Origin: an uncultured Thermodesulfobacteriota bacterium
Lineage (GTDB): Bacteria > Desulfobacterota > WTBG01 > CAIYCZ01 > CAIRTM01
Direction of reading: 5' to 3'
DNA length: 64,000 nucleotides
Assembly: GCA_964518865.1 (NCBI GenBank)
Contig: CAZFIB010000003.1
Coordinates: 10,520 to 74,519 of the forward strand
Shown piece by piece: positions 4,650 through 48,878 of the stretch. The position numbers were made by a program, and so were the translations under genes. The notes under the pieces are model-generated. The model made no database searches, had not been told where the DNA came from, and saw only the letters and a program-made list of their open reading frames with translations. Every line of letters starts with the position of its first letter. The first letter of the stretch is position 1.

Positions 4650-4668
4650 GAGTCACACTCTCCGAAAC

Positions 4669-8220: not shown

Positions 8221-8223
8221 GTT

Positions 8224-9345: not shown

Positions 9346-9348
9346 CTG

Positions 9349-9999: not shown

Positions 10000-10221
10000 A
10001 TGGAACCTCTCAAAAAAAATGAGTTGATAAATATCGTGATCAATACATGCCCAAAAAATACGACTTGACAGCAAAACAGCATGCGGAAACATCTGCTGTC
10101 TGTGAACACACTGCCCGGCCCCCCGTATGCAGGAGGGAGATCCGGCGATCATACCGCACACCCGCTTTTTAAAAGCGGTGCGTTCGCACAGGGCCCGTTC
10201 AGTCGTTCTATTAGTGCGGCA

Positions 10222-10701
10222 TTACATAATGCCGGCGCCGACCATGATCAGAATCGCAATCAGCAGTGCGAATACCGCAAAGGTTTCGGACATGACCGAA
10301 AGAACCATATTCTGGCCCAGCGTTTCAGGCTTTTTGGCTACGGATCCCATGGCGGCCCCGGCCGTCATGCCCTGACCGATCGCGGTCAGGCCGCCCAGTG
10401 CGGAAGCAAGACCTGCACCGAGGCTGATAAGCCCCAGCTCCATGGAAATCGGCTTTATCTCGCCGCCGAGCAGCCCGACGCCCATCAGGATGAGTACGGC
10501 CGTTACGAACCCGTAAATTCCCTGCGTCTGGGGAAACGCCTGCAGGATCAGTACCGGGCCGAATTTTTTAGGGTCTTCGGCTATAACGCCCGCGCCGGCG
10601 GCGCCCGCAATACCGACACCGATTCCGGAACCGATAGCGGCAACGCCCATCGCAAGCCCGGCACCAAGTGCCGCCAGTCCTAAGCCAAGTGTAAATTCCA
10701 T
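10222..10701 (-). CDS. atpK: V/A-type ATP synthase proteolipid subunit K (duplicated 4-TM c subunit)
   Basis: 159 aa, Gly/Ala-rich, two-hairpin proteolipid. It contains TQxxY, Q110 and E139, which align to the E. hirae NtpK Na+ site. Confidence 0.9.
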   Translation of the reverse strand: MEFTLGLGLAALGAGLAMGVAAIGSGIGVGIAGAAGAGVIAEDPKKFGPVLILQAFPQTQGIYGFVTAVLILMGVGLLGGEIKPISMELGLISLGAGLASALGGLTAIGQGMTAGAAMGSVAKKPETLGQNMVLSVMSETFAVFALLIAILIMVGAGIM

Positions 10702-10780
10702 ACCTGTATACCTCCTTACTGCGTTATATGAAATGTATTAATTCTGTTTGCATATCACGAGTCGGCTAAAAAAACCGGCC

Positions 10781-12748
10781 TTACGTTGAAGCCTGTCGTG
10801 CTTCCGTCACTTCCCGCTTGACGCGGAAGGGTTCAAAATCCTCTCCCCCGCCGCTGTAAAACTTGCCGAAAAATTCGACAAAATGAAGGCGGATGCCGTG
10901 GGCAAAAGCCCCCATCAGGTTAAGCACAAAGCTGAACAGATGGCCGCCTGCCAGTATCAGAATCGCCACGATCCAGCCGAAATACGGGATGCCGAACACC
11001 ATCTTTGCGAGCGCGTTGATAGCCACCGCAAGACCGAAGCTCACCAGCCCCAGCGCCATAAGGCGCGCATAGGACAGCGAATCGCCCAGCAGCCCGGTCA
11101 CGCCGAACAGCGCCATGCCTTTTTCGGCATACAGCAGCAGCAGCAGTGCCGGTACCGCGAAAACGATCGCCAGGGTCGATGCCTTGAGATAAAAGCAAAT
11201 CAGGGACAGCTCAAGAAAAAATATCCAGACGTTTTTGAGCGCTTCCGGAATATCGTTCCTGCGCATGTCCTTAATGATACCGACGACGATACCGAGATTG
11301 AGGTGCAGCAGGCCGACGCCGATGGCGAACAGGAGAAAATTGGACACGTCGACCATCGGATTTATAACCACTATTTTGTTCAAAAACGTCATGCCCAGGT
11401 ACTCGGTGGCGAGGTTGCCGAACCACCCCCCCGTCAACGAGCCGAGCACGACTGTGGAGGCTCCGCCAAGGGTCAGCAGCATGCCTGCGCTGCGGTACAG
11501 CGAATAGTATTTGCCGCCGCCGCGCAGGATAAAAACCCCCAGCAGCAGACACATCAGCCCGTACATGGCATCGGTTATCATGAGCCCGAAGAAAAAGAGA
11601 AACGAGGGGAATATGAGCACGGTCGGATCGACCTCGTCATATCGGGGCGGCGCATACAGTTTGACAAGCAGTTCGAAGTGCTTGAGAATGCCCGGGTTGT
11701 CGAGTGCGACCGGCAGTTTTTCCACCGGCTCGTCGGGTTCGGTCGCCTGACCGATTGCAAGCCCGTCACATGCACCCTCAATATCCTGAATCACTTTCTG
11801 CGCATGCTTTGCTGTCACAAAGCCCTCAATGGCAACGACATGCTCTGTGCGAGCGAAGCCGGTATAGGCCTCGGCGCGTTCGCGCTCGATAAGAAGGAGC
11901 TCACGCAGGGCTTTCAGGCGATTGCGGTAGGTTGCAGCGGTTCCCGCAATGAGTTTCCGGCAATGCTGCTGTTTTTCATCGAGGGCGTCGATACGCCTGG
12001 TTATGTCCGCAATGGCGTCGGCGGGTGTCCCCGCGGTGTCGACCGGCTGAATGCGCTCGACATCCCGGCGCCGCAGACAGGCTGCTGCTTCATCCGCATC
12101 ACTGTTCAGGCAAACAAGCAGAATACAGCTTTCAGAATCCGAGACAGCGGTCTCGGCAAAAAACGAGCAGCCGTTGGTAACTTCTTCAATTTCTTCGCGC
12201 AGCGGCCCGAATTCTTTTCCGGGTGCGACCCCGAGCAGTGCGGTGACAAAAGCTCCCTGACCCAGAAGCTCGATGGACACCTGCACTGATTTGATCCGCT
12301 GCAGGGCATCGCGCTGGGCAACGAGGTCCGTTTTTTCGGCCTCGCATTTTTCAAGCAGGGCCAGCTGGTCAGACACTTCCGCCTCAACCGTGGCAACAGC
12401 CGAATCGGTTTCCTTAAACAGGTCCTCTCCCGCAATATCCTCTATTGCTATTTTTTCGGGAGGCGCCGGCGCAAACAGTGTTTTAAAAAAGCCCTCCTCC
12501 TGCTCGGGCGCGACCATGGTAAAAATATCCAGAAGCCGGTTGACGGCCATTATCTGTGTCATTACCCGCCGAACATCGACGGACATGGGGTGTGAGCTCA
12601 GCAGATCGCTCCACTCCTGCGTTGCAAGACGACTGCGAAAGTCGGTAATCTGTACGGCGCCCAGCTCGTGCAGACGCTTGACCGCCTGCTGCTTGACTGA
12701 TTCATGAACGGCAAAGCGGACCCTCTGCATTCTTTCAGGGTAAAACAT
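10781..12748 (-). CDS. atpI: V/A-type ATP synthase subunit I (a subunit)
   Basis: 655 aa with an N-terminal soluble coiled-coil domain and a C-terminal polytopic membrane domain. The start (MFYPERMQRV) is typical. Confidence 0.9.
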   Translation of the reverse strand: MFYPERMQRVRFAVHESVKQQAVKRLHELGAVQITDFRSRLATQEWSDLLSSHPMSVDVRRVMTQIMAVNRLLDIFTMVAPEQEEGFFKTLFAPAPPEKIAIEDIAGEDLFKETDSAVATVEAEVSDQLALLEKCEAEKTDLVAQRDALQRIKSVQVSIELLGQGAFVTALLGVAPGKEFGPLREEIEEVTNGCSFFAETAVSDSESCILLVCLNSDADEAAACLRRRDVERIQPVDTAGTPADAIADITRRIDALDEKQQHCRKLIAGTAATYRNRLKALRELLLIERERAEAYTGFARTEHVVAIEGFVTAKHAQKVIQDIEGACDGLAIGQATEPDEPVEKLPVALDNPGILKHFELLVKLYAPPRYDEVDPTVLIFPSFLFFFGLMITDAMYGLMCLLLGVFILRGGGKYYSLYRSAGMLLTLGGASTVVLGSLTGGWFGNLATEYLGMTFLNKIVVINPMVDVSNFLLFAIGVGLLHLNLGIVVGIIKDMRRNDIPEALKNVWIFFLELSLICFYLKASTLAIVFAVPALLLLLYAEKGMALFGVTGLLGDSLSYARLMALGLVSFGLAVAINALAKMVFGIPYFGWIVAILILAGGHLFSFVLNLMGAFAHGIRLHFVEFFGKFYSGGGEDFEPFRVKREVTEARQAST

Positions 12749-13063
12749 TTAGCCCTCTCCTATCATCCGGCTGACTATAATCTTTGCAGCTGCCTGCACA
12801 TGGGCTTCGCCGCTTTCGGTGACGCTCCGTGCGCTTTCCCCGCCTTCCTTGACAATTGACTCAGCCTGTGCCTCAGCTTCAGCGCAGGCTTTTTGTATGA
12901 TTTCATCTGCCGTGCGTTCAGCCTCCTTTTCGGCGTCGGCAATGATCTGCTTTGCCTCGGATTCTGATTTTGCCAGCATATCGGCCGCTTTTTTCTTTGA
13001 CGCCTCTATGCGTTCCTGAACTTTCTGTTCGGCTTCCTTGATTTTTTTAAGGGAATCGATCAT
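12749..13063 (-). CDS. atpH: V/A-type ATP synthase subunit H (G-like stalk subunit)
   Basis: 104 aa charged helical protein (KE-rich). It is the first gene of the operon, immediately upstream of atpI. Confidence 0.6.
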   Translation of the reverse strand: MIDSLKKIKEAEQKVQERIEASKKKAADMLAKSESEAKQIIADAEKEAERTADEIIQKACAEAEAQAESIVKEGGESARSVTESGEAHVQAAAKIIVSRMIGEG

Positions 13064-13311: not shown

Positions 13312-16300
13312 ATGAGGTGCACTGATTCTATGATAACACAAACTGCAGGACACAGTTCTAAAGTCATAGGCAGACTTGCAATCATGCTCCTGCTGCTATG
13401 CCCGTCCGCGCACGGAGCAACGCTTGGCGTTCAAAAGGAGGGCGGCGCCTGCGACCCGAGCGGAACACCCTATTATTGCACAATCCAAAGCGCTCTTGCG
13501 GCTGCAAGCAACGGAGACACTGTATGCGTGTATGCAGCGACATCCACCGGCGCCTATGTCGAGGCGTTGACACTGACCAGGCAGGTTTCACTTGTCGGCA
13601 AAAAAAGTGACGGCAGCGATGCCTGGTCGGCGGGCCTTGCAGGCTCACTCAGCGGAGCACCGATCCTGACCATCACCGACACCTCTTCGTTTGCTTCTCA
13701 GCCGGTGGTGACGATAGGCGGGGCATCCGGAATCTCGATGCAGGGCCTTACCATTGACTCGCGCGGCTATCCCCTGACCTGCACCGCCATTACTTCGACC
13801 AGCTACGTATCGGTTACCTACTGCGATTTTCTAATGGGAGGAGATGCCGGAACCGACTGCGCGATCGGCGTGTATGACAATAACATTCCTGACAATATTA
13901 CCGTCACCTTTTGCAGGTTTGTCGGTCAGACAACCGGCACGGCCAACTGGTTTGCGGTTATGGGCGGTGCGGGGATAAGCTCCGTAACGCTTTCCTGCAA
14001 TCAGATAACGCGCACAAGCTCACTGCTCAGCCTTGGCAGTGCCGGCGACGTGCGTAATGTTCTCTACAACCGCAACACGTTTTACGGTACCGCGGGAGCC
14101 ATATTACTCAGTGATCCGCTCGGTGTGTCGGCAAAGGACTTTGCAAACATCCGTATCATTGACAACGAATTCGATGCAACCAATGAATATGCGGTTGTTG
14201 TAAGCAGTAACGTTGGCACAGATGATGCGGAAAACGGCGACTGGCGCTCGAACCTGGTTGTCAACAACAATGCCATCAAGACTTTGACGTCCTCAAGCTA
14301 CCCTGTCGTCGGTTTCGTCAGTTCCACGTTCAATATCACCCCGACCTATTATATGGACGCACAGCTGAACTGGTGGGGCGATCTGGACGGACCGGCGGAT
14401 GTTTCGTCCCGCGTGGATTACAGCCCCTGGATTGCCCAGGCGCAGGAGTACCGCACCGGCGGGGACCCGGCCTACTGGGGCACAAACGACAGCATTACCG
14501 ACGCCCTGGCGCAGGCCGGTGCAAACGACACGGTGTATGTGGTTGCCAAAGGCAGCCCCTTTGCCGAGTCGGTAACCGTGACGACCAGCCTGACCCTTAC
14601 GGGCAGAACAAGCGCGGGTGCGGACGCCTGGACCACCGGCACGGCCGGCGCCGCATCGGGAGCGCCGATTCTCGCTATTACGAATACGTCATTTTCAAAT
14701 CCCTTGATGCTTATTCGATCAACCGCAAACAATACGACTCTCAAAGGGTTTAAAATTAATACGGGTGGTGCTGTGGCACAGCAAATATCATGTACAACTT
14801 TTGGAGGCGCTGTAAGCAATGTTGATATTTCATATTGTGACTATGCGCTTGATGAAGGAGATAAAGCTATCGCTGTTGATTACGGAAACAGCATCAGCAA
14901 CCTTACTGCTACGTACAATACCTTCACCGGCCAAAATGACAATATTAGTAATTGGTTTTTTGTTGGCGAAAATGGGAGCGGAGGTGCAGTAAACAATGCA
15001 ATCCTTTCAAACAATTCAATAACAAATGCGATGTCAACGCTGCAGCTGAACAACTCAATTAAAAAAATACGTTATTCCAATAATACATTTAACAACAGCT
15101 GGGACGGGGGCGCAATTGCAACAAAAGCCGGGTATCTTCTTATTGAAGAACCTAACGATGACAATCCGAACATTATTCAAGGTATTACGATAACGCACAA
15201 CACCTTTAATAACGGTAATCCGGACACCGAGCCGAATGAATTCGGCGTTTTGATAGCAAATACCGTCGATCTTAATGAAACCGACTGGGAATCAAATCTT
15301 GCGATTCATTTCAATAATTTCCTTCAGGATGATGATAACGGAGGTTTCCCAATCGCAGGTTTTCAAACGGGTTCCCCGGATCATGCTAGCGAGATAACCG
15401 CGACAAAAAACTATTGGTCAGCGGCACCTAATGTGAGCAGCAACGGTATGGTTTCCGACAATGTGAAATATAACCCCTGGGTCAGAAGCGGAATCGATGG
15501 CGGATCCTATGCGGTACTCGGCGCCAACACAGTCGACTATATAACCGACACCACGAACGGCATTTACCTGACCGTCGAAACCGGTGCCGGTGGCGCGACC
15601 CTGCTGCCCACAAAATACGTCGGCAATCCCACCTCCACCTCACTGACAAGCGCGCAGGGGTATTTCGATCTCGGAATCAAGTCCGGCACAATCGATAAAA
15701 TAACCGCGACATTCACCTACTCCGGCAGCGACCCGAGCATCTCGAACCCGGCTGTCTGGTATAACGGCAGCACATGGGTTTCCTGCTCCAACCAGTCCCT
15801 CGATGCCTCGGCAAATGCGGTTACCGTTTACATCACCGACACAAGTCAGATTACGCCGACCATGAGCGATGTCGGAACCATTCACAATATAACACCCTCG
15901 ACCTTTTTCGCTCTCGCATTCTCGACAACCACAACGACAGCGCCCTCCACAAGCACATCATCGGCTGCGGCCACAACGACAAGCGTAACCGCCACATCCA
16001 CAACCACCTCAACCGGCGGCGGGGGAGGCAGCACGACAACGTCGACGAGCACCGTCCCGTCGACAACCACATCCGCGCTGCCTGATACCGCGAGCACGAC
16101 CACGATCGGGGTACCGCAGCTGAGCATAACGCCCGCTTCGCTCGAATTCGCCGACAATGAAAGCGCAAAGCAGCTCAGCATTGCCAATACCGGCACCGGA
16201 ACGCTCGACTGGTCGATCGACGACAATGCAACCTCGTATGCTGAGACAAGCGGATGGGTCTTCTCCGCGCGTCCCTCGACAGGACAGGTCATGGATACCC

Positions 16301-17064
16301 CTGATTCCGTCACCCTGACGGTCAGCCGCACGCTTCTGTCGCCGGGCACCTACAGTGCCGAAATCCCGGTCATGTCGAATGCCGGCGATGCCGACATCGA
16401 CGTGGAGATGGAAGTCGCCCGAAGCGAGCTTCCGATCATGTCCGTGCGGCCGCGCCTGCTTCTTTTCCTGCTGGACGATATCGACAACCAGACCATGACC
16501 GTGCGAAACCTTTTTTCAGGAACGCTTCTCTGGGAACTTGAGGACCCGATATATCACCGCGGTGAGGGGTGGCTCTCCTTCACGCCCTCATCGGGCTCTG
16601 TCCGGCGCGAAGCCGACACCGTTACCGTGAGCGTAACGCGGGATGCCATGTCGCCCGGACTGTACAGCGCAACCGTTCCCGTGCGCTCCAACTTCAACCG
16701 CCGGAACATCACGGTCGTCATGCTTGTGCAGGAAGGGCCCGACCTGCAGATCTCGCCGTCGCTTCTGTTTTTCGGCCGCAATGACGAAAATGAAAAAGAG
16801 GTGCTCCTCACGAATACCGGTTCGGGAATTGCGAACTGGACGATTGATTCGGATGCCATCGACTACCGGGGTGGCGACACGCCATGGGTGGTATCGGTAA
16901 GCCCTCTGTCGGGCTCCACCGAAACGCTTGAGGAGGACACCGTTACCGTTACCGTCAGCAGGGACTCTCTCGGTTTCGGCCTGTACCGTGCGATCATTCC
17001 GATAACATCGGCAAACGGCGGCGACAAAAAAATCAACGTGTATTTACTGGTACCGTTTTTGTAA
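13312..17064 (+). CDS. giant secreted surface protein
   Basis: Signal peptide, then two parallel beta-helix modules each ending in an NWWG..DGP motif, then a Thr/Ser-rich linker, then 3x DUF1573/BACON-like Ig domains. Confidence 0.8.
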   Translation: MRCTDSMITQTAGHSSKVIGRLAIMLLLLCPSAHGATLGVQKEGGACDPSGTPYYCTIQSALAAASNGDTVCVYAATSTGAYVEALTLTRQVSLVGKKSDGSDAWSAGLAGSLSGAPILTITDTSSFASQPVVTIGGASGISMQGLTIDSRGYPLTCTAITSTSYVSVTYCDFLMGGDAGTDCAIGVYDNNIPDNITVTFCRFVGQTTGTANWFAVMGGAGISSVTLSCNQITRTSSLLSLGSAGDVRNVLYNRNTFYGTAGAILLSDPLGVSAKDFANIRIIDNEFDATNEYAVVVSSNVGTDDAENGDWRSNLVVNNNAIKTLTSSSYPVVGFVSSTFNITPTYYMDAQLNWWGDLDGPADVSSRVDYSPWIAQAQEYRTGGDPAYWGTNDSITDALAQAGANDTVYVVAKGSPFAESVTVTTSLTLTGRTSAGADAWTTGTAGAASGAPILAITNTSFSNPLMLIRSTANNTTLKGFKINTGGAVAQQISCTTFGGAVSNVDISYCDYALDEGDKAIAVDYGNSISNLTATYNTFTGQNDNISNWFFVGENGSGGAVNNAILSNNSITNAMSTLQLNNSIKKIRYSNNTFNNSWDGGAIATKAGYLLIEEPNDDNPNIIQGITITHNTFNNGNPDTEPNEFGVLIANTVDLNETDWESNLAIHFNNFLQDDDNGGFPIAGFQTGSPDHASEITATKNYWSAAPNVSSNGMVSDNVKYNPWVRSGIDGGSYAVLGANTVDYITDTTNGIYLTVETGAGGATLLPTKYVGNPTSTSLTSAQGYFDLGIKSGTIDKITATFTYSGSDPSISNPAVWYNGSTWVSCSNQSLDASANAVTVYITDTSQITPTMSDVGTIHNITPSTFFALAFSTTTTTAPSTSTSSAAATTTSVTATSTTTSTGGGGGSTTTSTSTVPSTTTSALPDTASTTTIGVPQLSITPASLEFADNESAKQLSIANTGTGTLDWSIDDNATSYAETSGWVFSARPSTGQVMDTPDSVTLTVSRTLLSPGTYSAEIPVMSNAGDADIDVEMEVARSELPIMSVRPRLLLFLLDDIDNQTMTVRNLFSGTLLWELEDPIYHRGEGWLSFTPSSGSVRREADTVTVSVTRDAMSPGLYSATVPVRSNFNRRNITVVMLVQEGPDLQISPSLLFFGRNDENEKEVLLTNTGSGIANWTIDSDAIDYRGGDTPWVVSVSPLSGSTETLEEDTVTVTVSRDSLGFGLYRAIIPITSANGGDKKINVYLLVPFL

Positions 17065-17275
17065 GTACAGCTCTGGTGCCGAAAACGAACCTTCAGCTGC
17101 AGCGCACAAAGCCGGGCTGATCTCAGCGTGTCCGTCAATACTGATGTCATTCAGGTATCTGCCGGGCTCTCTGGGCAATTCACGGAAATTCATAGCCTGC
17201 CTGATCTTCAGATGTTTCCCGGACCCTGCGATCACGTCGCAGGGTGACATATCACCAAGAGCAATAAAGCGGGGC

Positions 17276-17395
17276 CAGAGCAATTTTCAATTTTTTGCAG
17301 CCGTTTTTTTGTCATTTCGACCGCAGGGGGAAATCGCTTCAGGAGCGTGCGCTTTCTCAGTCGCCGTGCTCCCTGAAAATGACAGAATGGCCTTG
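17276..17395 (-). repeat. structured ~110-nt intergenic repeat element, copy A
   Basis: Reverse complement is ~85% identical to copies at 43221-43330 and 48621-48740. It has nested inverted repeats (GTCATTTC.../...GAAATGAC) and a conserved flank 'CGGCTGCA...AAAATTGCTCTG'. Confidence 0.7.
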
Positions 17396-17483
17396 AGTAT
17401 TGTGAAAAATGGTTTAGTCCGGACGGTTTGAGCTGGTAACCGTGCCTGTTTTGTGTGATTTATACTGCATTATGATTGCACTG

Positions 17484-20531: not shown

Positions 20532-23500
20532 TTATCTGAAAAACAGCGGGACAAATATGATGACTGTTATTTCCTCATCACCGCCGTTCGACGTGACCGG
20601 CACAACCGCGCGGTGAAAGCCCGGCCGCAGGCTGCTTCGGTCGACACTGATCGTAATGGTTTCTTCACTCTCTTCACCGCTGACGGTACCGCTGTCTGAA
20701 TTGAAGCTTATCCAGTCGCTGCCGCGCCAGCCGTACTGAATGTCGCCGATACTCCACTCCAGAATACCGGTTCCCGCATTCTGAACTGCACACTGCGTTT
20801 CCGACACATTGCGGCGCATAAAGCAGAACGTCCGGCCGAGAGAAAGACGTGGCTCGCCCGTCGGAGGAGGTGCAGGTTCTTCCTCCTGGACGGTCAGAGT
20901 AACAGTTATATCCTTGCTGTCGGAGCCGTCTCGAAGTGCAAGTGTTATAATGGCATTGTATGTGCCCTGGTCCAAACCCTGACGGTCGACCGACACGGTC
21001 ATATCCATGCTGTCGCCCGGAGCAAGAGAGATGATGTTGGCATCCGTGCTGAGCCAGCCGCTGACGTCCGCGTACAGCGTTTCAACATACCAGGTCCCGT
21101 CCGCATCGCCCCGGTTCGTAACCGTAACCGTGGATTGCTCCTGCATCTCGAATGACGTGAATTCAAGGCTGCCTGAGCTGATCTCTACAGCCGGAGCAAG
21201 CGGAACATAGACATCACCCACACCAAGGCGCACGAGAACCGAGTCGGAGCCGCCGCTGGATGTTATGGGGAGATAGGCCTCGTAAATTCCCTCGCTCAAA
21301 CCGTCCCGGTTTACGTAGATGGTGACAATCTGCGTACCGGTACCGCTCGGGGGCTGAATCGACTCGATCCACCCGCTGCCGTCGAGGTACTGGGGGGTCC
21401 CGATGCTCCAGGTGAGGGTGCCGCCGCCGCTGTTGCCGATGGCGATAAAGCGGTCGTCGACGTCTTCAGGGAATCCGATATAGCCGTCCACATCTAGTAC
21501 CGGCGTCGTTGTGGAGCCGCCGCCTCCGCCGGTAGTGCCGCCACCGGTAGTGCCGGAATCGTCGTCATCGCCCGACGATGATCCTTCCATTGCGCCGGCA
21601 CCGAAGTAGGTTCCGCCGAGCTGTTCGATGGACGGGCTGCTGCTGTCTGTAATGACAACCTGCAGACAGTTGCCGACGCTTATTGCTGCCGGGTCGGTCG
21701 GTTTCCATTCGCCGGTATCACCGTTGAACCACATGACCGTATCGCCGCCGCTGCCGCAGATTTCGATTGTTATACTTGTCAACCCGTCAGGATCGGGGAC
21801 AAAAATATCGACATACTTTGCACCGGCCTTCAGCCCGCTGGACTTCCCGGTCGGTGTGCCGCTGTAGCTTGCAGCCATTATTTTGGCCGATCCCTCTACT
21901 TCAAGATTGACACCCGGCACCACGTCCGAGGCGCTGCTGCCGTTCATTTCCATCATGACAACCGAGCCTTCAAACGGACTTTCAAGGTGAGGAGAGAAGC
22001 AAACCAGGCCGCTGACGGATGCACCGCTGCCGGCAGCGGTTTTTCCCGCCGTGCAGTTGTCGGCCGTGTCGCCCGACGGACCGTCCTCAGCACCCCACCA
22101 GTTGTTGCGGGCATCCACGTGCTCGGTTCCGCTGTGCTCCAACCCAACCGGAACTGCAGGTTTGCATATATCCTCATTCTGGTCAGGATTGTACGTAGAC
22201 GGGCAGTTGTCGTCGTCATCCGCTATGCCGTCGCAGTCGGTATCATCAAGCGTAACCGTCTCTTCCTCGGGTGTTGACGGTATTGTTACGTTGCAGTTGC
22301 TGCCGCATGCATCGCCGATTCCGTCATCATCTGAATCCCGCTGATCGGGATTATAAACGTAAGGACAATTGTCATCACATGCTTCTGTCTCACCCTCCGC
22401 ACAGGCAACATCGCCGACGATACCGTTTTGGTCGCCGTCATCCGCTATGCCGTCGCAGTCGGTATCATCAAGCGTAACCGTCTCTTCCTCGGGTGTTGAC
22501 GGTATTGTCACTGTGCAGTTCTCCTGCACACCACCCTCCCCCGGAGTAAACTTGATGTTGTTGAAACTGATCTGCGTACCGTTGACATCATCGACGACAA
22601 AAGCTTTTTGATAGGTGCCGCTATCCATATCAATGGTCAGGCCGAGGATGGTGGCATTTTCCGCACGTATAGAAATCGCGGTGCTGTTCTCTGCAGGCAC
22701 ACCGTTTATAACCGGTGCAGCACCTTCGGCTGCCTTTATCGTCAGATTGGCAACATCAATCGCAAAACCGTCATAATCGCCGGTTTGAAGCTCAATAACC
22801 TTTTCTTCTTCGGGCGGAAGGGCGGCAAAAGCCGTAATGACATCGTTGATAGTTGCATACCCTGATCCGCCGCCCCCTGGACTGAAAAGAATGCTGTTGC
22901 TGTCATCACAGGTATCGCCGCGACCATCCTGGTCCGCATCATTTTGATCTTCGTTGTCCGTGTACGGACAGTTATCGCAGGCATCACCACGAGTGTCACC
23001 GTCACTGTTTGCCTGATCGCCATTTGCAATATCCGGACAGTTGTCACACGCATCACCGATAGTGTCATTATCAAAATCCAACTGATCGGCATTCGCGGTA
23101 TTCGGGCAATTGTCGCAGGCATCACCTACATCGTCACCGTCAAAGTCGGCCTGGGATGTATTGTTATCATACTGGCAGTTGTCGCACGCATCACCGATAG
23201 TGTCATTATCGAAATCCAACTGATCGGCATTCGCGGTATTCGGGCAATTGTCTTCTCCATCCTCAATACCGTCATTATCATCATCATCGTCACAGATATC
23301 GCCGATACCGTCGCCGTCGCTGTCACCGATATCGGGTGCAAATGAAGTAAATGCGGCGTCTTTGGCATAGGGATAAAAGCTCAGATTGGCGCTGACGCCC
23401 ATGACGGCAAGTTCACCGCCGGACCCGTCAGCAGCAGGGGTGCAGCCCAGAAAAGATTCGGAATTGTTAATTCCTCCTGACGGTCCGTCATCGGCTCCCC

Positions 23501-24254
23501 ACCAGTTATACCGCATATCTATGGCAGGCGGATTGTTTGTTGACAAATACTGCCCGAAAGCATGTCCCGCGTAATCAGGATTTCCTTCCCAGGCACTGCT
23601 GTTGTCGTTACCGCTCAAATCATTATATTGTATGAACAATTTCGGGACGTTACCGTAGACCCCGATCCCGCGGTGGTTGCCGGTAATACTGTTTTTCATA
23701 GAAATGTCGCCACCAATAAATATCCAGGACGAACTGGACCCGTTAATAAAAATACCGTAACCGTAGTCCGGGTGTTTGGTAGCATTATCTGGCGCAAAGC
23801 CGGCTATGGTATTATTTCTAATTGCAATGGAAGACCCGGAGTTGATAAAAATGCCGCAATCAGAACCGGTAATGGTAAAACCTTGGAGTGTTGTTAGACT
23901 TCCGGGAGGAGTCTGAATAAATACTGATGCGTATATATCAAGTATGTCAAGTGGAGAAATACCTGACTCGGGGGAAATCTGCTCTCCTTCGATAACCGGT
24001 GCAGCCCCGTCTGCAGCCTTGATGGTCAATCCCTGTTTCCAGATGATAAAACCGTCATAACTGCCGTCAGCCACCTCGATGGTAGAACCGGGGGCCGACA
24101 GATTTATCGCACTTTGAATGTCTAAAAAGTCGGCTGCACCTGTGGCGTTATCGTCATCCACCAGCAACGTGGCGGATTGCGCATTAGCATTAGAAATACA
24201 GACTGCATATGCCAGTAGTGCTATGAATAAACCGTGCATCCATGAAACTTTCAT
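20532..24254 (-). CDS. giant secreted Ca-binding surface protein
   Basis: Signal peptide (…ISNANAQS), then beta-helix modules with NWWG..DGPS motifs, then ~10 TSP3 repeats (DxDxDGxGDxCDNCPxxxNxDQ), then a Gly/Ser/Thr linker, then 3x DUF1573/BACON-like domains. Confidence 0.85.
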   Translation of the reverse strand: MKVSWMHGLFIALLAYAVCISNANAQSATLLVDDDNATGAADFLDIQSAINLSAPGSTIEVADGSYDGFIIWKQGLTIKAADGAAPVIEGEQISPESGISPLDILDIYASVFIQTPPGSLTTLQGFTITGSDCGIFINSGSSIAIRNNTIAGFAPDNATKHPDYGYGIFINGSSSSWIFIGGDISMKNSITGNHRGIGVYGNVPKLFIQYNDLSGNDNSSAWEGNPDYAGHAFGQYLSTNNPPAIDMRYNWWGADDGPSGGINNSESFLGCTPAADGSGGELAVMGVSANLSFYPYAKDAAFTSFAPDIGDSDGDGIGDICDDDDDNDGIEDGEDNCPNTANADQLDFDNDTIGDACDNCQYDNNTSQADFDGDDVGDACDNCPNTANADQLDFDNDTIGDACDNCPDIANGDQANSDGDTRGDACDNCPYTDNEDQNDADQDGRGDTCDDSNSILFSPGGGGSGYATINDVITAFAALPPEEEKVIELQTGDYDGFAIDVANLTIKAAEGAAPVINGVPAENSTAISIRAENATILGLTIDMDSGTYQKAFVVDDVNGTQISFNNIKFTPGEGGVQENCTVTIPSTPEEETVTLDDTDCDGIADDGDQNGIVGDVACAEGETEACDDNCPYVYNPDQRDSDDDGIGDACGSNCNVTIPSTPEEETVTLDDTDCDGIADDDDNCPSTYNPDQNEDICKPAVPVGLEHSGTEHVDARNNWWGAEDGPSGDTADNCTAGKTAAGSGASVSGLVCFSPHLESPFEGSVVMMEMNGSSASDVVPGVNLEVEGSAKIMAASYSGTPTGKSSGLKAGAKYVDIFVPDPDGLTSITIEICGSGGDTVMWFNGDTGEWKPTDPAAISVGNCLQVVITDSSSPSIEQLGGTYFGAGAMEGSSSGDDDDSGTTGGGTTGGGGGSTTTPVLDVDGYIGFPEDVDDRFIAIGNSGGGTLTWSIGTPQYLDGSGWIESIQPPSGTGTQIVTIYVNRDGLSEGIYEAYLPITSSGGSDSVLVRLGVGDVYVPLAPAVEISSGSLEFTSFEMQEQSTVTVTNRGDADGTWYVETLYADVSGWLSTDANIISLAPGDSMDMTVSVDRQGLDQGTYNAIITLALRDGSDSKDITVTLTVQEEEPAPPPTGEPRLSLGRTFCFMRRNVSETQCAVQNAGTGILEWSIGDIQYGWRGSDWISFNSDSGTVSGEESEETITISVDRSSLRPGFHRAVVPVTSNGGDEEITVIIFVPLFFR
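22211..22508 (-). repeat. intragenic near-identical ~78-bp direct repeats (2 copies, ~220 bp apart)
   Basis: The same 78-nt string (…gtcatccgctatgccgtcgcagtcggtatcatcaagcgtaaccgtctcttcctcgggtgttgacggtattgt) occurs at ~22211 and ~22431. It encodes NVTIPSTPEEETVTLDDTDCDGIADD twice. Confidence 0.85.
23043..23251 (-). repeat. intragenic near-identical ~72-bp direct repeats in TSP3 region (2 copies, ~137 bp apart)
   Basis: 70/72 identical copies at ~23043 and ~23180. They encode DNCPNTANADQLDFDNDTIGDACDNC. Confidence 0.85.
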
Positions 24255-40421: not shown

Positions 40422-41014
40422 GCCGGGTGCCTCCGCTGCGGAAACGGATTTCGCCTGCCCGCAATAATCTCCTGGAGTTTCAATATGCCCTCTATCAGCC
40501 CTTCCGGCCGCGGCGGACAGCCCGGCACATAGACATCAACCGGTATCAGCCTGTCGACCCCCTCTATGACATAGTAGTTTCCTTCACCGGCAAACGGCCC
40601 GCCGGAAACCGCGCAATTGCCCAGAGCGATAACCCACTTGGGGTACGGCATCTGCTGGTACAGGGTAATGACCGACTCTGCCATCTTTTTGTTGACCGTG
40701 CCGGCCACGATCATAAGGTCTGCCTGTCGCGGCGAAGGCCGAAACACTTCGGCACCGTAGCGGGAAAGGTCAAAGCGGGCCATGCCCGCGCTCATCATCT
40801 CGATGGCACAGCACGACAGACCGAATGTCAAAGGCCACAGGGAGTTGGCGCGGCAGAGATTCTGCAGCTTTTCGCTGAGCCGCATGCGTCCGAGCACGCC
40901 GGCCTGCTGCAGCTCCTGCCCCTCTTCAAACTTTGAGCGCAGGCGGGAGGCAAACTCGTTGATGTCTAATAAATCTTTTTTTCGCTGCTCCAGAGAAAGA
41001 CTCCTTTCCTCCAT
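40418..41014 (-). CDS. nuoB: NADH-quinone oxidoreductase subunit B (20 kDa, N2 cluster)
   Basis: '[17 protein letters not shown]', '[10 protein letters not shown]' and '[10 protein letters not shown]' cysteine motifs. The exact start is uncertain (overlaps nuoA). Confidence 0.85.
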
Positions 41015-41361
41015 GCATATACCAGCCCCAGTGACAGAATGCCCAGGAACAGAACAAAAGCCGTTATGCCGCGAACCCGTTCGACCGCGTCAAAGGCGGC
41101 CGCAACGGGATACAGATAGAGAACATCAACCTCGAATGCCAGAAATATGAGGGCGTATAAATAATAGGCTATGCCGTGGCGAAAGTCCCACGACTGTCCG
41201 AAGGGCACGATCCCGCACTCATACGTCTGCAGCATGGCTGGCGAAATTCGTGCCGCAGGGCGCAGAAGGCGGGAGGCAAGAAACGGCAGACATGCAGCTG
41301 CAATACCGCTGCCCGCAAACAGGCTGATGTAAATGTATGCTCTGAGGTCTGCAAATTCCAT
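40966..41361 (-). CDS. nuoA: NADH-quinone oxidoreductase subunit A
   Basis: Start chosen at the internal ATG giving ~131 aa and 3 TM. 'YECGIVPFG' is the NuoA motif. The upstream extension lacks homology. Confidence 0.8.
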
Positions 41362-41400
41362 GAAAAGAACTAACAAACACCGCTGTAGTACACTGCGGAC

Positions 41401-41419
41401 ATGCAGGCAACACCTGCAT
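41401..41419 (-). promoter_or_regulatory. perfect 7-bp inverted repeat (ATGCAGG-N5-CCTGCAT) ~40-58 nt upstream of nuoA
   Basis: The palindrome is read directly in the nuo leader. It is a candidate operator or 5'-UTR hairpin. Confidence 0.3.
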
Positions 41420-41636
41420 GCGGAGAACGCGCACCCGCACGCTGCACCGTATGCGGTTTGCCCGTTGAAGACCCTCACCGGCCGGAGCACAGTAGTGCCG
41501 GCTGGAGGGGAGGCACCCTGATATAAAAAAGTAAAGTATACAGAAGCTGCCGGACGTGTCAACCGCTATCAGCGGCATACGGACGGCACGAACGGATGCC
41601 CTATAAGCCATTAAGTATTATTCTATTAAAATACTA

Positions 41637-43148: not shown

Positions 43149-43220
43149 GCTGATCCACTTCTCGACCCGGGAACGGACGAAAAATACATACTAAAGAATT
43201 ATTCACAATACGTATAGCCA

Positions 43221-43330
43221 CTCTGTCATTTCGAAGGAGCACGGCGACTGAGAAATCTCACGCCCCTGAAGAGATTTCTCCCTGCGGTCGAAATGACAAA
43301 AAACAGACGGCTGCAGAATAAAGGGGTCTG
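43221..43330 (+). repeat. structured ~110-nt intergenic repeat element, copy B (best-preserved)
   Basis: GTCATTTCGA[…]GAGAAATCTC[loop]GAGATTTCTC[…]TCGAAATGAC followed by AAAAAACAGACGGCTGCAG. Confidence 0.7.
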
Positions 43331-43539
43331 CTTTAAAACGCTAAACTGATTATTACATACTTACTATGGAATTACAAAGGCTTATATGGTCAGGCAGGCA
43401 TGCCGTTCCCTCTCTCAAGGCAGATACTGCATCATGCTGCTCTGCGTACTTAAGGCGGGTTCCGGCTCTTTTTTTTAGATAATATGAAATGCACAAAAGG
43501 TGTCTGATCAAAGAAGGGTAACGGGTCGAGCAAGGTCAG

Positions 43540-47636: not shown

Positions 47637-48593
47637 ATGAAAAATATAGGAATCGCAACGGCAATACTTTTTATGGTACTTATTATATTAGATACGCCAT
47701 CTGCAGTATCATATGAATACCTGGATGACAACAGCAATCCCGGGCATGAACAGGATCTGTATGAAATATTCAATACTGTTTTCGATACCGACTACACTTC
47801 ATCTGATCACATATATTACGATTGCGGTCTTGCCGACGAAGATGATGATCAGTGGCATGAAATCGGCAGCGGCCATATCAGCATAACCGTCCGCTATGCC
47901 GGATACGAGCAGGAGCTCGGTATCATCGACACCTCCGGCACCTATTACACGATAGCTGCCGACATTCCGAAAGGTTTTTCCAACATACAGGCCCTGCTGC
48001 CCATTCCGGATGACTTTGTTTTTGTCGAAAAGCTTGGCGGCAAAGGAAGCGGCACGGGGCCCTGGTACTCAGACGACCGGAATTCTGAAAATGTCGATCA
48101 TTTCATGGCGTTTGACGTAACAGAGCTGTACAGAAAAAAATTTTCATCTGATGTCGACCGGGCATGGTTTATTGCATTCGAGGACGGGCCGGACGGGGCC
48201 GATTTTGACTATAATGATTTGATCTGTGTTGTTGCAGATGTGGAACCGACCCTCATCGAGCTGTCGTCGTTTACGGCTGTACCGTTCAGCAACAAAGTCA
48301 TGATTAACTGGTCGACTGCCTCCGAAGTCGATTGCGTAGGGTTCAATATGTATCGCGCAGAATCATCCGACGGAGACTACCGGAAAATCAACGAGGCTGT
48401 TATACCTTGCACAGGTTCTCCCGTAAGCGGTGACTCATATCTTTTCATCGACGAATCCGCGGTTAACCGAAAGACGTATTTTTACCGGCTTGAAGATATC
48501 GACCGTTTCGGCGAAACAACCCTTCACAGGCCCGTTCAGGCTACACCCCGGTTCATTTTTGCCCTTTTGCAGGGCCTGGCTTCGTACCGCTAG
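47637..48593 (+). CDS. secreted protein with DUF4114-like domain and C-terminal Fn3/Ig-like domain
   Basis: Signal peptide. 'AWFIAFEDGPDGADFDYNDLICVV' matches the DUF4114 core. The C-terminal 'IELSSFTA…INWSTASEVDCVGFNMYR…YFYRLEDID' is a conserved beta-sandwich module. Confidence 0.55.
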   Translation: MKNIGIATAILFMVLIILDTPSAVSYEYLDDNSNPGHEQDLYEIFNTVFDTDYTSSDHIYYDCGLADEDDDQWHEIGSGHISITVRYAGYEQELGIIDTSGTYYTIAADIPKGFSNIQALLPIPDDFVFVEKLGGKGSGTGPWYSDDRNSENVDHFMAFDVTELYRKKFSSDVDRAWFIAFEDGPDGADFDYNDLICVVADVEPTLIELSSFTAVPFSNKVMINWSTASEVDCVGFNMYRAESSDGDYRKINEAVIPCTGSPVSGDSYLFIDESAVNRKTYFYRLEDIDRFGETTLHRPVQATPRFIFALLQGLASYR

Positions 48594-48620
48594 AGCATTT
48601 TTCACGCTGCTGCAGTCCTT

Positions 48621-48740
48621 CCGTCATTTTTAAGCAGCACAGCGACTGAGAAATCTCAAGCAAATGAATATATTTCTCTCCCTTCGGTCGAAACAACAAA
48701 AAAAGACGGCTGCAGAAAACAGAAAATTGCTCTGTCCTCC
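48621..48740 (+). repeat. structured ~110-nt intergenic repeat element, copy C (partly degenerate outer stem)
   Basis: Alignable with copy B throughout. It shares 'GACGGCTGCAGAAAACAGAAAATTGCTCTG' with the reverse complement of copy A. Confidence 0.65.
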
Positions 48741-48878
48741 GGTGCTGTTTCTCGATGCCGTGCCGACAAACTAGTTTTTGCAATAGCGCACGTATTGTTC
48801 TAAAATACTGACTCTGCACCCCGGCTGAGGGAACAAAACGGCGTTCGTTTTTTCCGCTATCAGGCACAAGGAGTCCGT

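What the first reader, a model, noticed from the sequence alone, without database searches (positions are those of the whole stretch)
43221..43330. Family of ~110-nt structured intergenic elements (3 copies in 64 kb) with compensatory base changes
Copies lie at 17276-17395 (reverse), 43221-43330 and 48621-48740 and share ~85% identity. Each has nested stems: an outer GTCATTTCGA/TCGAAATGAC stem and an inner 10-bp stem. The inner stem reads GAGAAATCTC/GAGATTTCTC in copy B but GAGAAAGCGC/GCGATTTCCC in copy A. Positions 8-10 of the 5' arm (CTC in B, CGC in A) still pair with the 3' arm in both copies, the T-to-G change at position 9 being compensated (T-A becomes G-C). A conserved loop 'GGAGCACGGCGACTGAGAAA' and a conserved 3' flank 'GACGGCTGCAG…AAAATTGCTCTG' are also present. 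None is a canonical terminator in either orientation. All three sit beside genes for secreted or envelope proteins (giant protein 1 and the Wzy_C protein, a GT-C-like protein, and the DUF4114 protein).
Basis: seen in the sequence. Interest (0 to 1): 0.65.

Follow-up and report, generated by a model that had tools for sequence, protein, structure and literature searches.

The report
Hairpin DNA repeats linked to Ssn nuclease
The three look-alike intergenic elements are real, but they are best read as DNA-level palindromic repeats (inverted pairs of "TGTC/CGTC-tagged" hairpin units of the kind that flank small GIY-YIG single-strand DNA nucleases of the Ssn type), not as a new structured RNA, so they are a fairly ordinary new member of a known repeat class with some unusual details.

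Summary
Three copies of a ~145-nt imperfect palindrome lie at 17270-17413(-), 43195-43339(+) and 48594-48740(+), with nhmmer E-values of 1e-43 to 1e-46 and no fourth copy.

The ~80-nt core is two inverted hairpin units of the form [T/C]GTC-ATTTC-GA-loop-GA-GAAAT-C, with the tags facing outward. This matches the head-to-head dimers of CGTC/TGTC-tagged REPs (Di Nocera 2013) and the NTS/SRM hairpins that flank, and are cut by, GIY-YIG ssDNA nucleases of the Ssn family (Chenal 2025).

The same unit occurs nearly unchanged in Bacteroidota, Desulfobacterota, Spirochaetes, Chloroflexota and Caldithrix contigs. In 6 of 6 Bacteroidota loci examined it flanks a 99-aa GIY-YIG gene.

Covariation supports the two small unit hairpins: nine compensated stem variants, and 73 fully paired non-ATTTC stems against 3.5 expected.

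There is no Rfam hit, no shared promoter or terminator, and the copies do not share one orientation relative to genes, so an RNA role is not supported.

The nuclease gene is not in the window, so its presence in this genome is inferred. The unit fails the published SRM search pattern literally, because it has a tandem G·A interior.

Verdict: new member of a known kind, modest interest.

The parts
43195..43339 (+). Copy B, whole composite element (~145 nt imperfect palindrome), the best preserved copy
   Evidence: nhmmer E = 2e-45. DNA fold -23.5 kcal/mol, z = -3.2.
43224..43257 (+). Copy B left (long) unit: TGTC-ATTTC-GA-AGGAGCACGGCGACT-GA-GAAAT-C
   Evidence: Sequence read directly. It meets the tag + 5-bp stem + C rule. 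The predicted ssDNA fold is 5 bp, then G·A/G·A, 2 bp, G·A/G·A, 2 bp and a triloop.
43258..43272 (+). Copy B spacer between the two units (TCACGCCCCTGAAGA). Its first and last bases extend the inner stem.
   Evidence: Spacer length and sequence vary freely among relatives, 3 to ~50 nt.
43273..43298 (-). Copy B right (short) unit, read on the minus strand: TGTC-ATTTC-GA-CCGCAGG-GA-GAAAT-C
   Evidence: The same short unit is common in other loci and in IMG/VR contigs, with CCNNNGG loops.
43195..43223 (+). Copy B outer 5' arm, shared only by the three window copies (..ATT(A/T)TTCACAATAC..AGCCA)
   Evidence: Alignment. It pairs with the 3' arm in the fold. It is absent from relatives in other genomes.
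43299..43339 (+). Copy B outer 3' arm (A-run, GACGGCTGCAG...)
   Evidence: Alignment; sequence.
17270..17413 (-). Copy A, whole composite element, between the convergent 1250-aa gene and the Wzy_C gene
   Evidence: nhmmer E = 5e-46. Flanking genes.
17351..17384 (-). Copy A left (long) unit, degenerate stem (ATTTT / GAAAG)
   Evidence: It fails the strict unit rule.
17310..17335 (+). Copy A right (short) unit, intact: TGTC-ATTTC-GACCGCAGGGG-GAAAT-C
17219..17249 (-). Separate single unit of a second type, TGTC-ACCCTGCGA-CGTGA-TCGCAGGGT-CCGG (9-bp stem, 5-nt loop), 20 nt from copy A
   Evidence: It is the only literal match in the window to the published SRM pattern, against 0.28 expected from shuffles. 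DNA hairpin -10.8 kcal/mol, z = -4.0.
48590..48740 (+). Copy C, whole composite element. Its first bases supply the TAG stop codon (48591-48593) of the upstream DUF4114-like ORF.
   Evidence: nhmmer E = 2e-43 for 48594-48740. Stop codon read.
48622..48655 (+). Copy C left (long) unit, CGTC tag, stem ATTTT/GAAAT (one T·G)
48670..48698 (-). Copy C right (short) unit, decayed (tag GTTG, stem broken)

Best explanation
Each element is a DNA repeat. It is a head-to-head (tags outward) heterodimer of two small hairpin units of the CGTC/TGTC-tagged REP class, and here it is embedded in a lineage-specific outer inverted repeat that brings the whole to ~145 nt.

Each unit has the form [T/C]GTC + A-Y-Y-Y-Y + GA + loop + GA + R-R-R-R-T + C. 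When the DNA is single-stranded, the unit folds into a 5-bp stem extended by tandem G·A pairs. The unpaired GTC tag upstream and a C just after the stem give the unit a direction.

Units of exactly this kind are the partner sites of small single-domain GIY-YIG nucleases of the Ssn type. In Neisseria these bind the hairpin only as ssDNA and cut a few bases upstream of the tag (published result, PMC11893778). Because the two units are inverted, each strand of the element carries one correctly oriented site, at its outer edge.

Shown here:
- the anatomy of the element;
- the unit-level covariation;
- that this same unit flanks GIY-YIG genes in Bacteroidota.

Inferred:
- that the source genome (a Desulfobacterota-like MAG) encodes such a nuclease;
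- that the nuclease acts on these copies;
- that the dimer is the gene-less miniature of the unit-nuclease gene-unit arrangement and spreads, or once spread, with that enzyme's help.

Any effect on neighbouring genes (RNA hairpins in transcripts, recombination hot spots, restriction of incoming ssDNA) would be secondary and is untested.
For: Anatomy: tag, AT start, C after the stem and tags outward are read directly.

Agreement with the literature:
- Di Nocera 2013 (PMC3733652) describes a CGTC tag often changed to TGTC and stems that start with AT.
- The same paper reports mostly head-to-head dimers, often heterodimers with different loops, and no RAYT association.
- It lists the host phyla as Proteobacteria, Chlorobi, Bacteroidetes, Spirochaetes and Thermotogae.
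- Chenal 2025 (PMC11893778) gives NTS = CGTC-ATTCCCGCG-MAV-GCGGGAAT-C.
- In that work the C after the palindrome is critical for binding and the 3 nt upstream are critical for cleavage.
- 71% of ssnA homologues are flanked by such motifs.

The same unit elsewhere: it is found, outside the 17-mer used as bait, in Anaerolineales, Spirochaetes, Desulfobulbaceae, Smithella, Syntrophobacterales, Caldithrix, Flavobacteriaceae and Bacteroidales contigs.

Association with a nuclease gene:
- Two of the ~24 independent loci fetched by the repeat alone carry a GIY-YIG gene flanked on both sides by the unit. These are L051 (PF01541, E = 6e-15) and L044 (a frameshifted copy).
- All 4 further homologues sampled (Maribacter, Polaribacter, Urechidicola, Galbibacter) are flanked on both sides. 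They carry 3, 15, 26 and 2 units per 5.3 kb, against 0.2-0.5 in shuffles.
- A 52%-identical homologue in Sinorhizobium meliloti is flanked by the canonical CGTCATCCTCGGGCTTGACCCGAGGATCCA, which is a literal SRM match.

Covariation: the two-unit model beats every shuffle. There are nine compensated stem variants, and 73 of 153 non-ATTTC stems are fully paired against 3.5 expected.

Other points:
- A literal SRM unit lies 20 nt from copy A.
- An independent assembly of the same sample breaks inside copy B, as expected at a repeat.
Against: - No GIY-YIG gene is in the 64-kb window or in the 2.2 kb beyond it that could be read. The rest of the genome could not be searched.
- The ATTTC units do not fit the published degenerate SRM pattern, which finds 0 of them even in the flavobacterial arrays. 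Nor do they fit the 8-9-bp stem / 4-5-nt loop format of the four published CGTC families.
- Homology of the flavobacterial GIY-YIG proteins to Neisseria SsnA (CDD cd10448) could not be tested directly. NCBIfam has no model for this family.
- With standard nearest-neighbour DNA parameters the single units are weak hairpins (-1.7 and -2.6 kcal/mol, no better than shuffles), whereas the long hairpin is strong.
- About 30-40 nt of flank on each side is copied along with the dimer in this genome. Cleavage 'a few nucleotides upstream of the tag' does not explain this.
- Only 3 of the 6 units in the three dimers are intact, so these copies may be relics.
Confidence: 0.72

Rival explanations
1. A structured small RNA or cis-regulatory RNA. 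The ~110-145-nt element is transcribed and its nested stems are maintained by selection at the RNA level.
For: As RNA, the element folds into a stable hairpin in copy B (-40 kcal/mol, z = -2.7). One compensated pair exists in copy A. Some long-stem variants are U·G pairs. REP-type repeats that are transcribed can stabilise mRNA (general knowledge; discussed in PMC3733652).
Against: - No Rfam match was found.
- Copies A and C fold no better than shuffles (z = -1.1 and -1.65).
- Orientation relative to genes is mixed.
- There is no shared promoter or terminator.
- Covariation favours the two small units, which lie on opposite strands, so a single transcript would carry only one unit in its proper sense.
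- Units occur alone, in arrays and in both orientations in other genomes.
Confidence: 0.08
2. A REPIN, that is a REP doublet mobilised in trans by a RAYT (an HUH/Y1 tyrosine transposase related to IS200/IS605 TnpA).
For: The architecture is the same: two inverted REP units that can form one long hairpin, with singlets, dimers and clusters.
Against: - The tag is TGTC/CGTC, not GTAG.
- Di Nocera et al. found no RAYT flanked by CGTC repeats.
- The gene found flanked by this unit is a GIY-YIG nuclease, not a Y1 transposase.
- No recurrent transposase lies near the repeats.
- Ten further window ORFs scanned in Pfam show no Y1_Tnp domain (not all ORFs were scanned).
Confidence: 0.07
3. A classical MITE: a deletion derivative of a DDE-type insertion sequence, defined by the outer terminal inverted repeats (CTAGAGCATTTTTC / GAAAATTGCTCTG) and moved by that IS's transposase. 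On this reading the tagged units are only passengers.
For: The three window copies share ~30-40 nt of outer arms that are inverted repeats of each other. These arms are specific to this genome. In another metagenome the same core sits inside a different outer inverted repeat (L079/L080).
Against: No target-site duplication is visible at any copy. No parent IS or transposase is in the window. The arms are only loosely conserved, and copy B lacks the terminal AAAATTGCTCTG.
Confidence: 0.1

Closest known systems
Ssn-related motifs (SRM), including the Neisseria Transformation Sequence (NTS, which contains dRS3), partnered with SsnA-type GIY-YIG ssDNA nucleases (Chenal et al., Nat Commun 2025, PMC11893778)
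   Same: - Both are directional hairpin repeats with an upstream HGTC tag, a stem that starts with AT and a C directly after the stem.
- Both are intergenic and multi-copy, and often lie near envelope genes.
- The same unit flanks ~99-aa single-domain GIY-YIG genes on both sides.
- A 52%-identical homologue of that protein in S. meliloti is flanked by literal SRMs.
   Different: - The stem is 5 AT-rich base pairs continued by tandem G·A, rather than a GC-rich 8-9-bp stem.
- Loops are 7-19 nt and partly structured.
- The published SRM pattern misses every copy.
- The tag is often G/AGTC in Flavobacteria.
- One 35-nt version is nearly identical across at least five phyla.
- In this window the dimer is embedded in extra outer arms.
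- The nuclease was not found in the window, and nuclease activity on this unit is untested.
CGTC-tagged REP super-family (families CGTC-1 to -4; Di Nocera, De Gregorio & Rocco, BMC Genomics 2013, PMC3733652)
   Same: - The CGTC tag is frequently TGTC.
- The first two stem positions are A-T.
- There is a short unpaired 3' tail.
- Head-to-head dimers predominate, and heterodimers have different loops.
- Singlets and large clusters occur.
- No RAYT association is seen.
- The reported phyla include Bacteroidetes (Gramella forsetii), Spirochaetes, Chlorobi and Proteobacteria.
   Different: - The published stems are 8-9 bp with 4-5-nt loops and mostly a CCA tail.
- Here the stem is 5 bp plus G·A pairs, the loops are longer and the tail is CTC/CTT.
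- Only the singlet at 17219-17249 fits the published format.
REPINs / BIMEs with RAYT transposases (Bertels & Rainey 2011; Nunvar 2010; Ton-Hoang 2012)
   Same: Two inverted short palindromes form one larger hairpin. There are singlets, doublets and clusters. A single-copy nuclease or transposase gene is flanked by its own repeats.
   Different: The tag is different (GTAG in REPINs) and the enzyme class is different (HUH/Y1 in REPINs, GIY-YIG here). REPIN-RAYT pairs are described as vertically inherited and lineage-specific, whereas this unit is shared across phyla.
ERIC / Correia-type ~100-150-nt palindromic intergenic elements (MITE-like)
   Same: The size is similar, and both are imperfect palindromes with intergenic dispersal. 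Both can change ORF ends; here copy C supplies a stop codon.
   Different: ERIC/Correia-type elements have no tagged sub-units and no link to a GIY-YIG gene. Correia elements have TA target duplications and IHF sites, and none is seen here.

Membership tests
CGTC/TGTC-tagged REPs (Di Nocera 2013) | Unpaired terminal tag CGTC (also TGTC or CCTC) at one end of the palindrome | tested here: met
   TGTC in five units (A left, A right, B left, B right, C right) and CGTC in C left. In C right only the next base has decayed, giving TGTTG.
CGTC/TGTC-tagged REPs (Di Nocera 2013) | Stem starts with complementary A-T at positions 1 and 2 | tested here: met
   AT...AT in the intact units. Across all fetched loci the compensated stems are A-Y-Y-Y-Y / R-R-R-R-T.
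CGTC/TGTC-tagged REPs (Di Nocera 2013) | Stem of 8-9 bp with a loop of 4-5 nt | tested here: not met
   The ATTTC units have 5 Watson-Crick pairs, then tandem G·A, then loops of 7-19 nt. The singlet at 17219-17249 does meet this feature, with a 9-bp stem and 5-nt loop.
CGTC/TGTC-tagged REPs (Di Nocera 2013) | Mostly head-to-head dimers (tags outside), often heterodimers | tested here: met
   All three window copies and 14 relatives are tags-outward pairs of a long-loop and a short-loop unit.
CGTC/TGTC-tagged REPs (Di Nocera 2013) | High copy number, dispersed in intergenic DNA of one genome | tested here: inconclusive
   The window holds 3 dimers and 1 singlet in 64 kb, all intergenic. The rest of the genome was not available. 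An assembly break inside copy B hints at more copies.
Ssn-related motif (SRM/NTS; Chenal 2025) | Match to the published pattern HGTCWYN(0-2)YYVSBRHN(0-5)WNVSBRGN(0-2)RNCYNB | tested here: not met
   None of the ATTTC units matches, either in the window or in the flavobacterial arrays. The pattern requires C/G where these units have the A of the G·A pair. One literal match exists at 17219-17249(-).
Ssn-related motif (SRM/NTS; Chenal 2025) | Directional hairpin: conserved GTC just upstream of the palindrome and C just after it | tested here: met
   GA/GA follows the stem in 105 of ~170 units, and the tags are TGTC 94, GGTC 28, CGTC 25 and AGTC 23.
Ssn-related motif (SRM/NTS; Chenal 2025) | The motif flanks the gene of a small single-domain GIY-YIG protein (ssnA homologue) | tested here: met
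   Met in other genomes for this same unit: L051, L044, L084, L085, L086 and L087. In the source genome itself this is not testable, and no GIY-YIG gene is in the window.
Ssn-related motif (SRM/NTS; Chenal 2025) | The flanked protein belongs to CDD cd10448 / is homologous to N. meningitidis SsnA | not testable with these tools
   There is no CDD library or SsnA sequence here. The indirect evidence is limited to:
- PF01541, E = 6e-15, 99 aa, single domain;
- 41-52% identity to rhizobial GIY-YIG genes, one of which (S. meliloti) is flanked by literal SRMs;
- PDB hits only to UPF0213 GIY-YIG proteins, E = 0.005.
Ssn-related motif (SRM/NTS; Chenal 2025) | Cleaved by the cognate nuclease as ssDNA only, on one strand, upstream of the tag | not testable with these tools
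   This needs a biochemical assay.
REPIN / RAYT system | GTAG tag and a RAYT (Y1 HUH transposase) gene flanked by the same repeats | tested here: not met
   The tag is TGTC/CGTC. No transposase recurs next to the repeats. The flanked gene is GIY-YIG. The literature reports no RAYT for CGTC repeats.
MITE (IS-derived) | Terminal inverted repeats plus target-site duplication | tested here: not met
   Loose outer inverted arms are present, but no direct duplication is seen at the ends of any of the three copies.
Known structured RNA family (Rfam) | Covariance-model match at the gathering threshold | tested here: not met
   0 matches in the window and 0 in four related loci.
Integron attC site | R''/R' core sites RYYYAAC ... 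GTTRRRY at the ends of the imperfect palindrome | tested here: not met
   The ends read TGTCATTTCGA ... TCGAAATGACA, with no GTT/AAC cores. No cassette-like ORF arrays are present.

The most novel reading that the evidence does not exclude
The ATTTC/GAAAT unit with its tandem G·A interior is a distinct, previously uncatalogued class of Ssn partner site that the published SRM definition misses. One 35-nt version of it (TGTCATTTCGAAGGAGCACAGCGACTGAGAAATC) has moved between at least five bacterial phyla and into IMG/VR (pro)viral contigs. The gene-less head-to-head dimers, such as the three in this window, would then be non-autonomous mobile elements copied with the help of the GIY-YIG nuclease. 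That would make Ssn-type enzymes the engine of a REPIN-like system built on a GIY-YIG rather than an HUH nuclease.
Probability: 0.25. Interest if true: 0.6.

Novelty: new member of a known kind. Interest (0 to 1): 0.33.

Why it matters
The practical points are:
- The three elements should be annotated as REP/SRM-type DNA repeats, not as candidate sRNAs.
- Short ORFs called across them (for example 17144-17431 and 48553-48867) are most likely spurious.

For the young Ssn field, the result points to a large set of hairpin sites that the published search pattern does not catch. These sites have a 5-bp A-Y-Y-Y-Y stem followed by tandem G·A. They sit next to easily obtainable flavobacterial GIY-YIG genes, which could widen the catalogue of site-specific ssDNA nucleases.

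The near-identity of one unit across phyla, together with the unit-gene-unit versus unit-unit pairing, makes the question 'do Ssn nucleases spread their own repeats?' testable.

Tried and rejected
- Rfam at gathering thresholds on the window and on four related loci gave nothing.
- Hammerhead or other ribozyme cores were checked by eye. CUGAGAA / GAAA does not fit CUGANGA...GAAA with the right helices, so this was dropped.
- Integron attC was considered because of 304-nt-spaced copies in Christiangramia. It was rejected: there are no R'/R'' cores and no cassettes, and the spacing comes from a 300-nt tandem duplication of repeat clusters.
- An all-against-all comparison of 363 ORFs within 3 kb of the repeats in 28 loci looked for a recurrent neighbouring gene. 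Only orthologous Smithella loci recur, and there is no transposase.
- Full-text search of papers for the sequence itself returned only chance primer matches.
- Exact-protein look-ups to name the source gave only anonymous Logan contigs of run SRR7048224 plus an unnamed NCBI contig of 102,866 nt. The taxon was inferred from ilvD neighbours, which are Deltaproteobacteria/Desulfobacterota at 73-78% identity, with an unnamed best hit at 81%.
- GIY-YIG was searched for in the window and in the 2.2 kb beyond its right end, and none was found.
- GIY-YIG relatives were searched for in viral contigs, and none was found.
- The long unit as a 28-mer has 0 hits in viral contigs, although the generic unit is common there.
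- NCBIfam and PDB give no specific family name for the flanked GIY-YIG protein.
Full report
**1. The observation**

Reading the three places shows the same element. A profile built from them finds exactly three matches in the window and nothing else above noise:
- 17270-17413 on the minus strand, E = 5e-46;
- 43195-43339 on the plus strand, E = 2e-45;
- 48594-48740 on the plus strand, E = 2e-43.

The element is therefore about 145 nt long, not 110. Pairwise identities are 83-90%.

Copy C is more decayed. None of the copies coincides with a promoter-like or terminator-like site shared between them. All three are intergenic.

**2. Anatomy**

The ~80-nt core is made of two units in inverted orientation.
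- The left unit, read on the element's strand, is TGTC-ATTTC-GA-AGGAGCACGGCGACT-GA-GAAAT-C.
- The right unit, read on the other strand, is TGTC-ATTTC-GA-CCGCAGG-GA-GAAAT-C.

Each unit has an unpaired tag (TGTC, or CGTC in copy C), a 5-bp stem that begins with A-T, a G-A on each side that can form tandem G·A pairs, a loop with its own small stem, and a C right after the stem (one search shows this fold for both units). The tags face outward.

Around this core, the three window copies share about 30-40 nt of further sequence on each side. These flanks are loosely inverted repeats of each other.

**3. Relatives elsewhere**

A scan of one genome per species with a 17-mer from the long loop returned 72 places. 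Most are chance matches, as expected for a 17-mer in 596 Gb.

A profile search showed that about 18 of the hits carry the unit well beyond the bait. The full TGTCATTTCGAAGGAGCACAGCGACTGAGAAATCT is often followed by a spacer and the inverted short unit. These hits lie in Anaerolineales, Spirochaetes, Desulfobulbaceae, Smithella, Syntrophobacterales, Caldithrix, Flavobacteriaceae, Bacteroidales and Lentimicrobiaceae contigs. A 34-mer scan of metagenomes added ten more.

None of these relatives shares the outer arms of the window copies. In one lake metagenome the same core sits inside a different outer inverted repeat.

Units also occur alone, in tandem fragments and in arrays. Christiangramia echinicola has about 5 kb of ORF-free DNA filled with several unit types.

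The source organism is a Desulfobacterota-like MAG, judged from its ilvD neighbours.

**4. Which structure is conserved**

On an alignment of 17 full-length cores, two models were compared.

| Model | Cells paired | Pairs changed on both sides | Cells changed on both sides | Shuffles doing as well |
|---|---|---|---|---|
| Nested long hairpin | 93.5% | 3 | 4 | 14-38 of 500 |
| Two-unit hairpins | 97.1% | 6 | 17 | 0 of 500 |

Several heterodimers combine an ATTTC/GAAAT left unit with an ATTCC/GGAAT or ATCTC/GAGAT right unit. Each small stem then stays intact while the long stem acquires mismatches.

Over all non-redundant loci, the 5-bp stem occurs in these compensated forms:

| Stem variant | Count |
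|---|---|
| ATTTC/GAAAT | 244 |
| ATTCC/GGAAT | 25 |
| ATCCC/GGGAT | 17 |
| ATCCT/AGGAT | 13 |
| ATCTC/GAGAT | 6 |
| ATCTT/AAGAT | 4 |
| ATTCT/AGAAT | 3 |
| ATATC/GATAT | 2 |
| ACTCT/AGAGT | 2 |

Of 153 matches whose 5' arm is not ATTTC, 73 are fully complementary, against 3.5 expected if the arms are shuffled.

The energy model points the other way. Single units are weak hairpins (-1.7 and -2.6 kcal/mol) and the long hairpin is strong (-18.6 kcal/mol). However, standard parameters give no credit for sheared G·A pairs or for a bound protein. My conclusion is that the unit is the evolving entity, and the long hairpin follows from pairing two similar units.

**5. What is known about such units**

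Di Nocera et al. (PMC3733652) sorted REPs into GTAG-tagged and CGTC-tagged super-families. For the CGTC class they report:
- a tag often changed to TGTC;
- stems that almost always start with A-T;
- a short unpaired tail;
- mostly head-to-head dimers (tags outside), often heterodimers with different loops;
- large clusters in some species;
- no associated RAYT;
- hosts in Proteobacteria, Chlorobi, Bacteroidetes (including Gramella forsetii), Spirochaetes and Thermotogae.

Chenal et al. (PMC11893778) showed that the Neisseria member of this class (dRS3/NTS, CGTCATTCCCGCGMAVGCGGGAATCYRG) is the site of SsnA, a 94-aa single-domain GIY-YIG nuclease. Their main findings are:
- SsnA binds the hairpin only as ssDNA and cuts a few bases upstream.
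- The C after the palindrome matters most for binding, and the three bases upstream matter most for cutting.
- 71% of ssnA homologues are flanked by such motifs (SRMs).
- The motif-gene-motif layout resembles an insertion sequence.
- In Neisseria the system restricts transforming DNA.
- NTS clusters lie near membrane-protein genes.

**6. Test of the link for this particular unit**

Among the loci fetched only because they contain the repeat, two carry a small GIY-YIG gene flanked on both sides by the unit.
- L051, a Bacteroidia MAG: ORF 416-715, PF01541 E = 6e-15. The gene's stop codon overlaps an inverted unit.
- L044, a Bacteroidales MAG: a frameshifted copy between two complete head-to-head dimers.

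The L051 protein has about 1000 relatives, and the top 120 are all from Flavobacteriaceae. I sampled four genera. In all four the gene lies between units of the same format:

| Genus | Units per 5.3 kb | Shuffle mean |
|---|---|---|
| Maribacter | 3 | 0.22 |
| Polaribacter | 15 | 0.34 |
| Urechidicola | 26 | 0.53 |
| Galbibacter | 2 | 0.22 |

The Maribacter unit, AGTCATTTCGAAGGAGCTTGCGACTGAGAAATC, is almost the window's long unit. Galbibacter uses a compensated ATATC/GATAT stem.

A 52%-identical homologue on S. meliloti pSymB is flanked by the classical CGTCATCCTCGGGCTTGACCCGAGGATCCA, which matches the published SRM pattern literally. A Spirosoma homologue has, just upstream of the gene, an inverted pair of TGTCATCCCGAGGAACGAGGGATC units.

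In four of the seven clear cases the units nearest the gene have their tags facing outward. That is the same layout as the gene-less dimer in the window.

**7. Limits**

- The window contains no GIY-YIG gene, nor does the 2.2 kb beyond its right end. The remainder of the MAG could not be reached.
- The ATTTC units fail the published SRM pattern, which finds none of them even in the flavobacterial arrays. They also fail the published 8-9-bp stem format.
- The only literal SRM in the window is a different unit at 17219-17249(-), 20 nt from copy A.
- Membership of the flavobacterial proteins in cd10448 could not be checked directly.
- The conserved outer arms are not explained by cleavage just upstream of the tag.

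**8. Rival readings**

- A structured RNA is unlikely, for the reasons given in sections 1 and 4 and because no Rfam family matches.
- A RAYT-driven REPIN is unlikely. The tag is wrong, no Y1 transposase is associated with the repeats, and the gene that is associated is a GIY-YIG nuclease.
- A DDE-type MITE defined by the outer arms cannot be excluded, but there is no target duplication and no parent element.
- An integron attC site is excluded by the lack of core sites.

**9. Verdict**

The finding is real and well described at the sequence level, but its interpretation needs changing. These are DNA repeats of the CGTC/TGTC-tagged REP (SRM) class, arranged as head-to-head heterodimers. They are most probably the partner sites, or relics of partner sites, of an Ssn-type GIY-YIG ssDNA nuclease. 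This is a new member of a known kind.

Three features are unusual:
- the G·A-containing stem, which escapes the published motif;
- the near-identity of one 35-nt unit across at least five phyla and its presence in IMG/VR contigs;
- the extra outer arms in this genome.

Interest is modest.

Noticed in passing
window 17219-17249 (-): A single hairpin unit of a second type, TGTCACCCTGCGACGTGATCGCAGGGTCCGG (9-bp stem, 5-nt loop), lies 20 nt from copy A. It is the only literal match in the window to the published Ssn-related motif pattern.
   Followed up: partly
window 48590-48593: The first bases of copy C (CTAGAGC...) supply the TAG stop codon of the upstream DUF4114-like ORF (47637-48593). The insertion may therefore have reshaped that protein's C-terminus. 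In L051 the GIY-YIG gene's stop codon likewise overlaps a unit.
   Followed up: no
window 43248 / 43289 (inside copy B): Two contigs of an independent Logan assembly of run SRR7048224 end and start inside copy B. One ends at window position 43248 and the next begins at 43289. Copy A is assembled through. This suggests that B-like copies exist elsewhere in that sample.
   Followed up: partly
window 17144-17431 (+) and 48553-48867 (-): ORFs of 95 and 104 aa run across copies A and C. They are probably spurious calls of the kind these repeats generate in many annotations.
   Followed up: no
L031 2100-6900 (Christiangramia echinicola DSM 19838): About 5 kb with almost no ORF is packed with several different tagged hairpin types (GTCATTTCGAAGGAGCACAGCGACTGAGAAATCTC, CGTCATGCTGAAC..TTCAGCATCTC, GTCACCCTGAA..TTCAGGGTCTC, GTCACTCTGAGTGCAACGAAGAGTCTC). 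The region includes 300-nt tandem duplications.
   Followed up: partly
L079 614-770 and 1480-1640; L080 850-1018 (lake metagenome Ga0172370): The same core dimer sits in the loop of a different, larger inverted repeat (TTAATTAGTGKCTGAACGRAAAC ... GTTTYCGTTCAGMCACTAAYTA). This outer repeat recurs next to ribosome-binding sites and looks like a separate repeat family or 5' leader element.
   Followed up: no
L094-L213 (IMG/VR contigs), e.g. L145, L147, L114, L129, L202: The generic unit GTCATTTCGA-N(5-30)-GAGAAATC is common in contigs classed as viral (at least 120 stretches, up to 7 per contig, mostly with CCNNNGG loops). These include head-to-head dimers like the window core. No GIY-YIG relative was found on them. 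Whether these contigs are phages, prophages or host DNA was not examined.
   Followed up: partly
L044 1700-1760: Directly upstream of the repeat-flanked GIY-YIG pseudogene there is a sequence that looks like the 3' end of a tRNA or tmRNA gene (GGTTCGACTCTCCAGCTCCACA), which would suggest insertion next to a tRNA. It was not checked with a tRNA finder.
   Followed up: no
window 13312-17064 (+) and 20532-24254 (-): Two ~1250-aa proteins flank the Wzy_C/TPR gene region. The second gives partial NCBIfam hits, all far below their cut-offs, to the MYXO-CTERM protein MtsC, an Omp28-related selenoprotein, NosD and choice-of-anchor D. The first has no Pfam hit. They are possibly a surface-protein locus.
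   Followed up: no
window 1-12750 and 29960-41600: A V-type ATPase operon (subunits I, A, B and others) lies at the left end of the window. A long run of Nuo/Mrp-type antiporter-like subunit genes follows at 29960-41600. The GC skew is steadily negative across the whole window.
   Followed up: no
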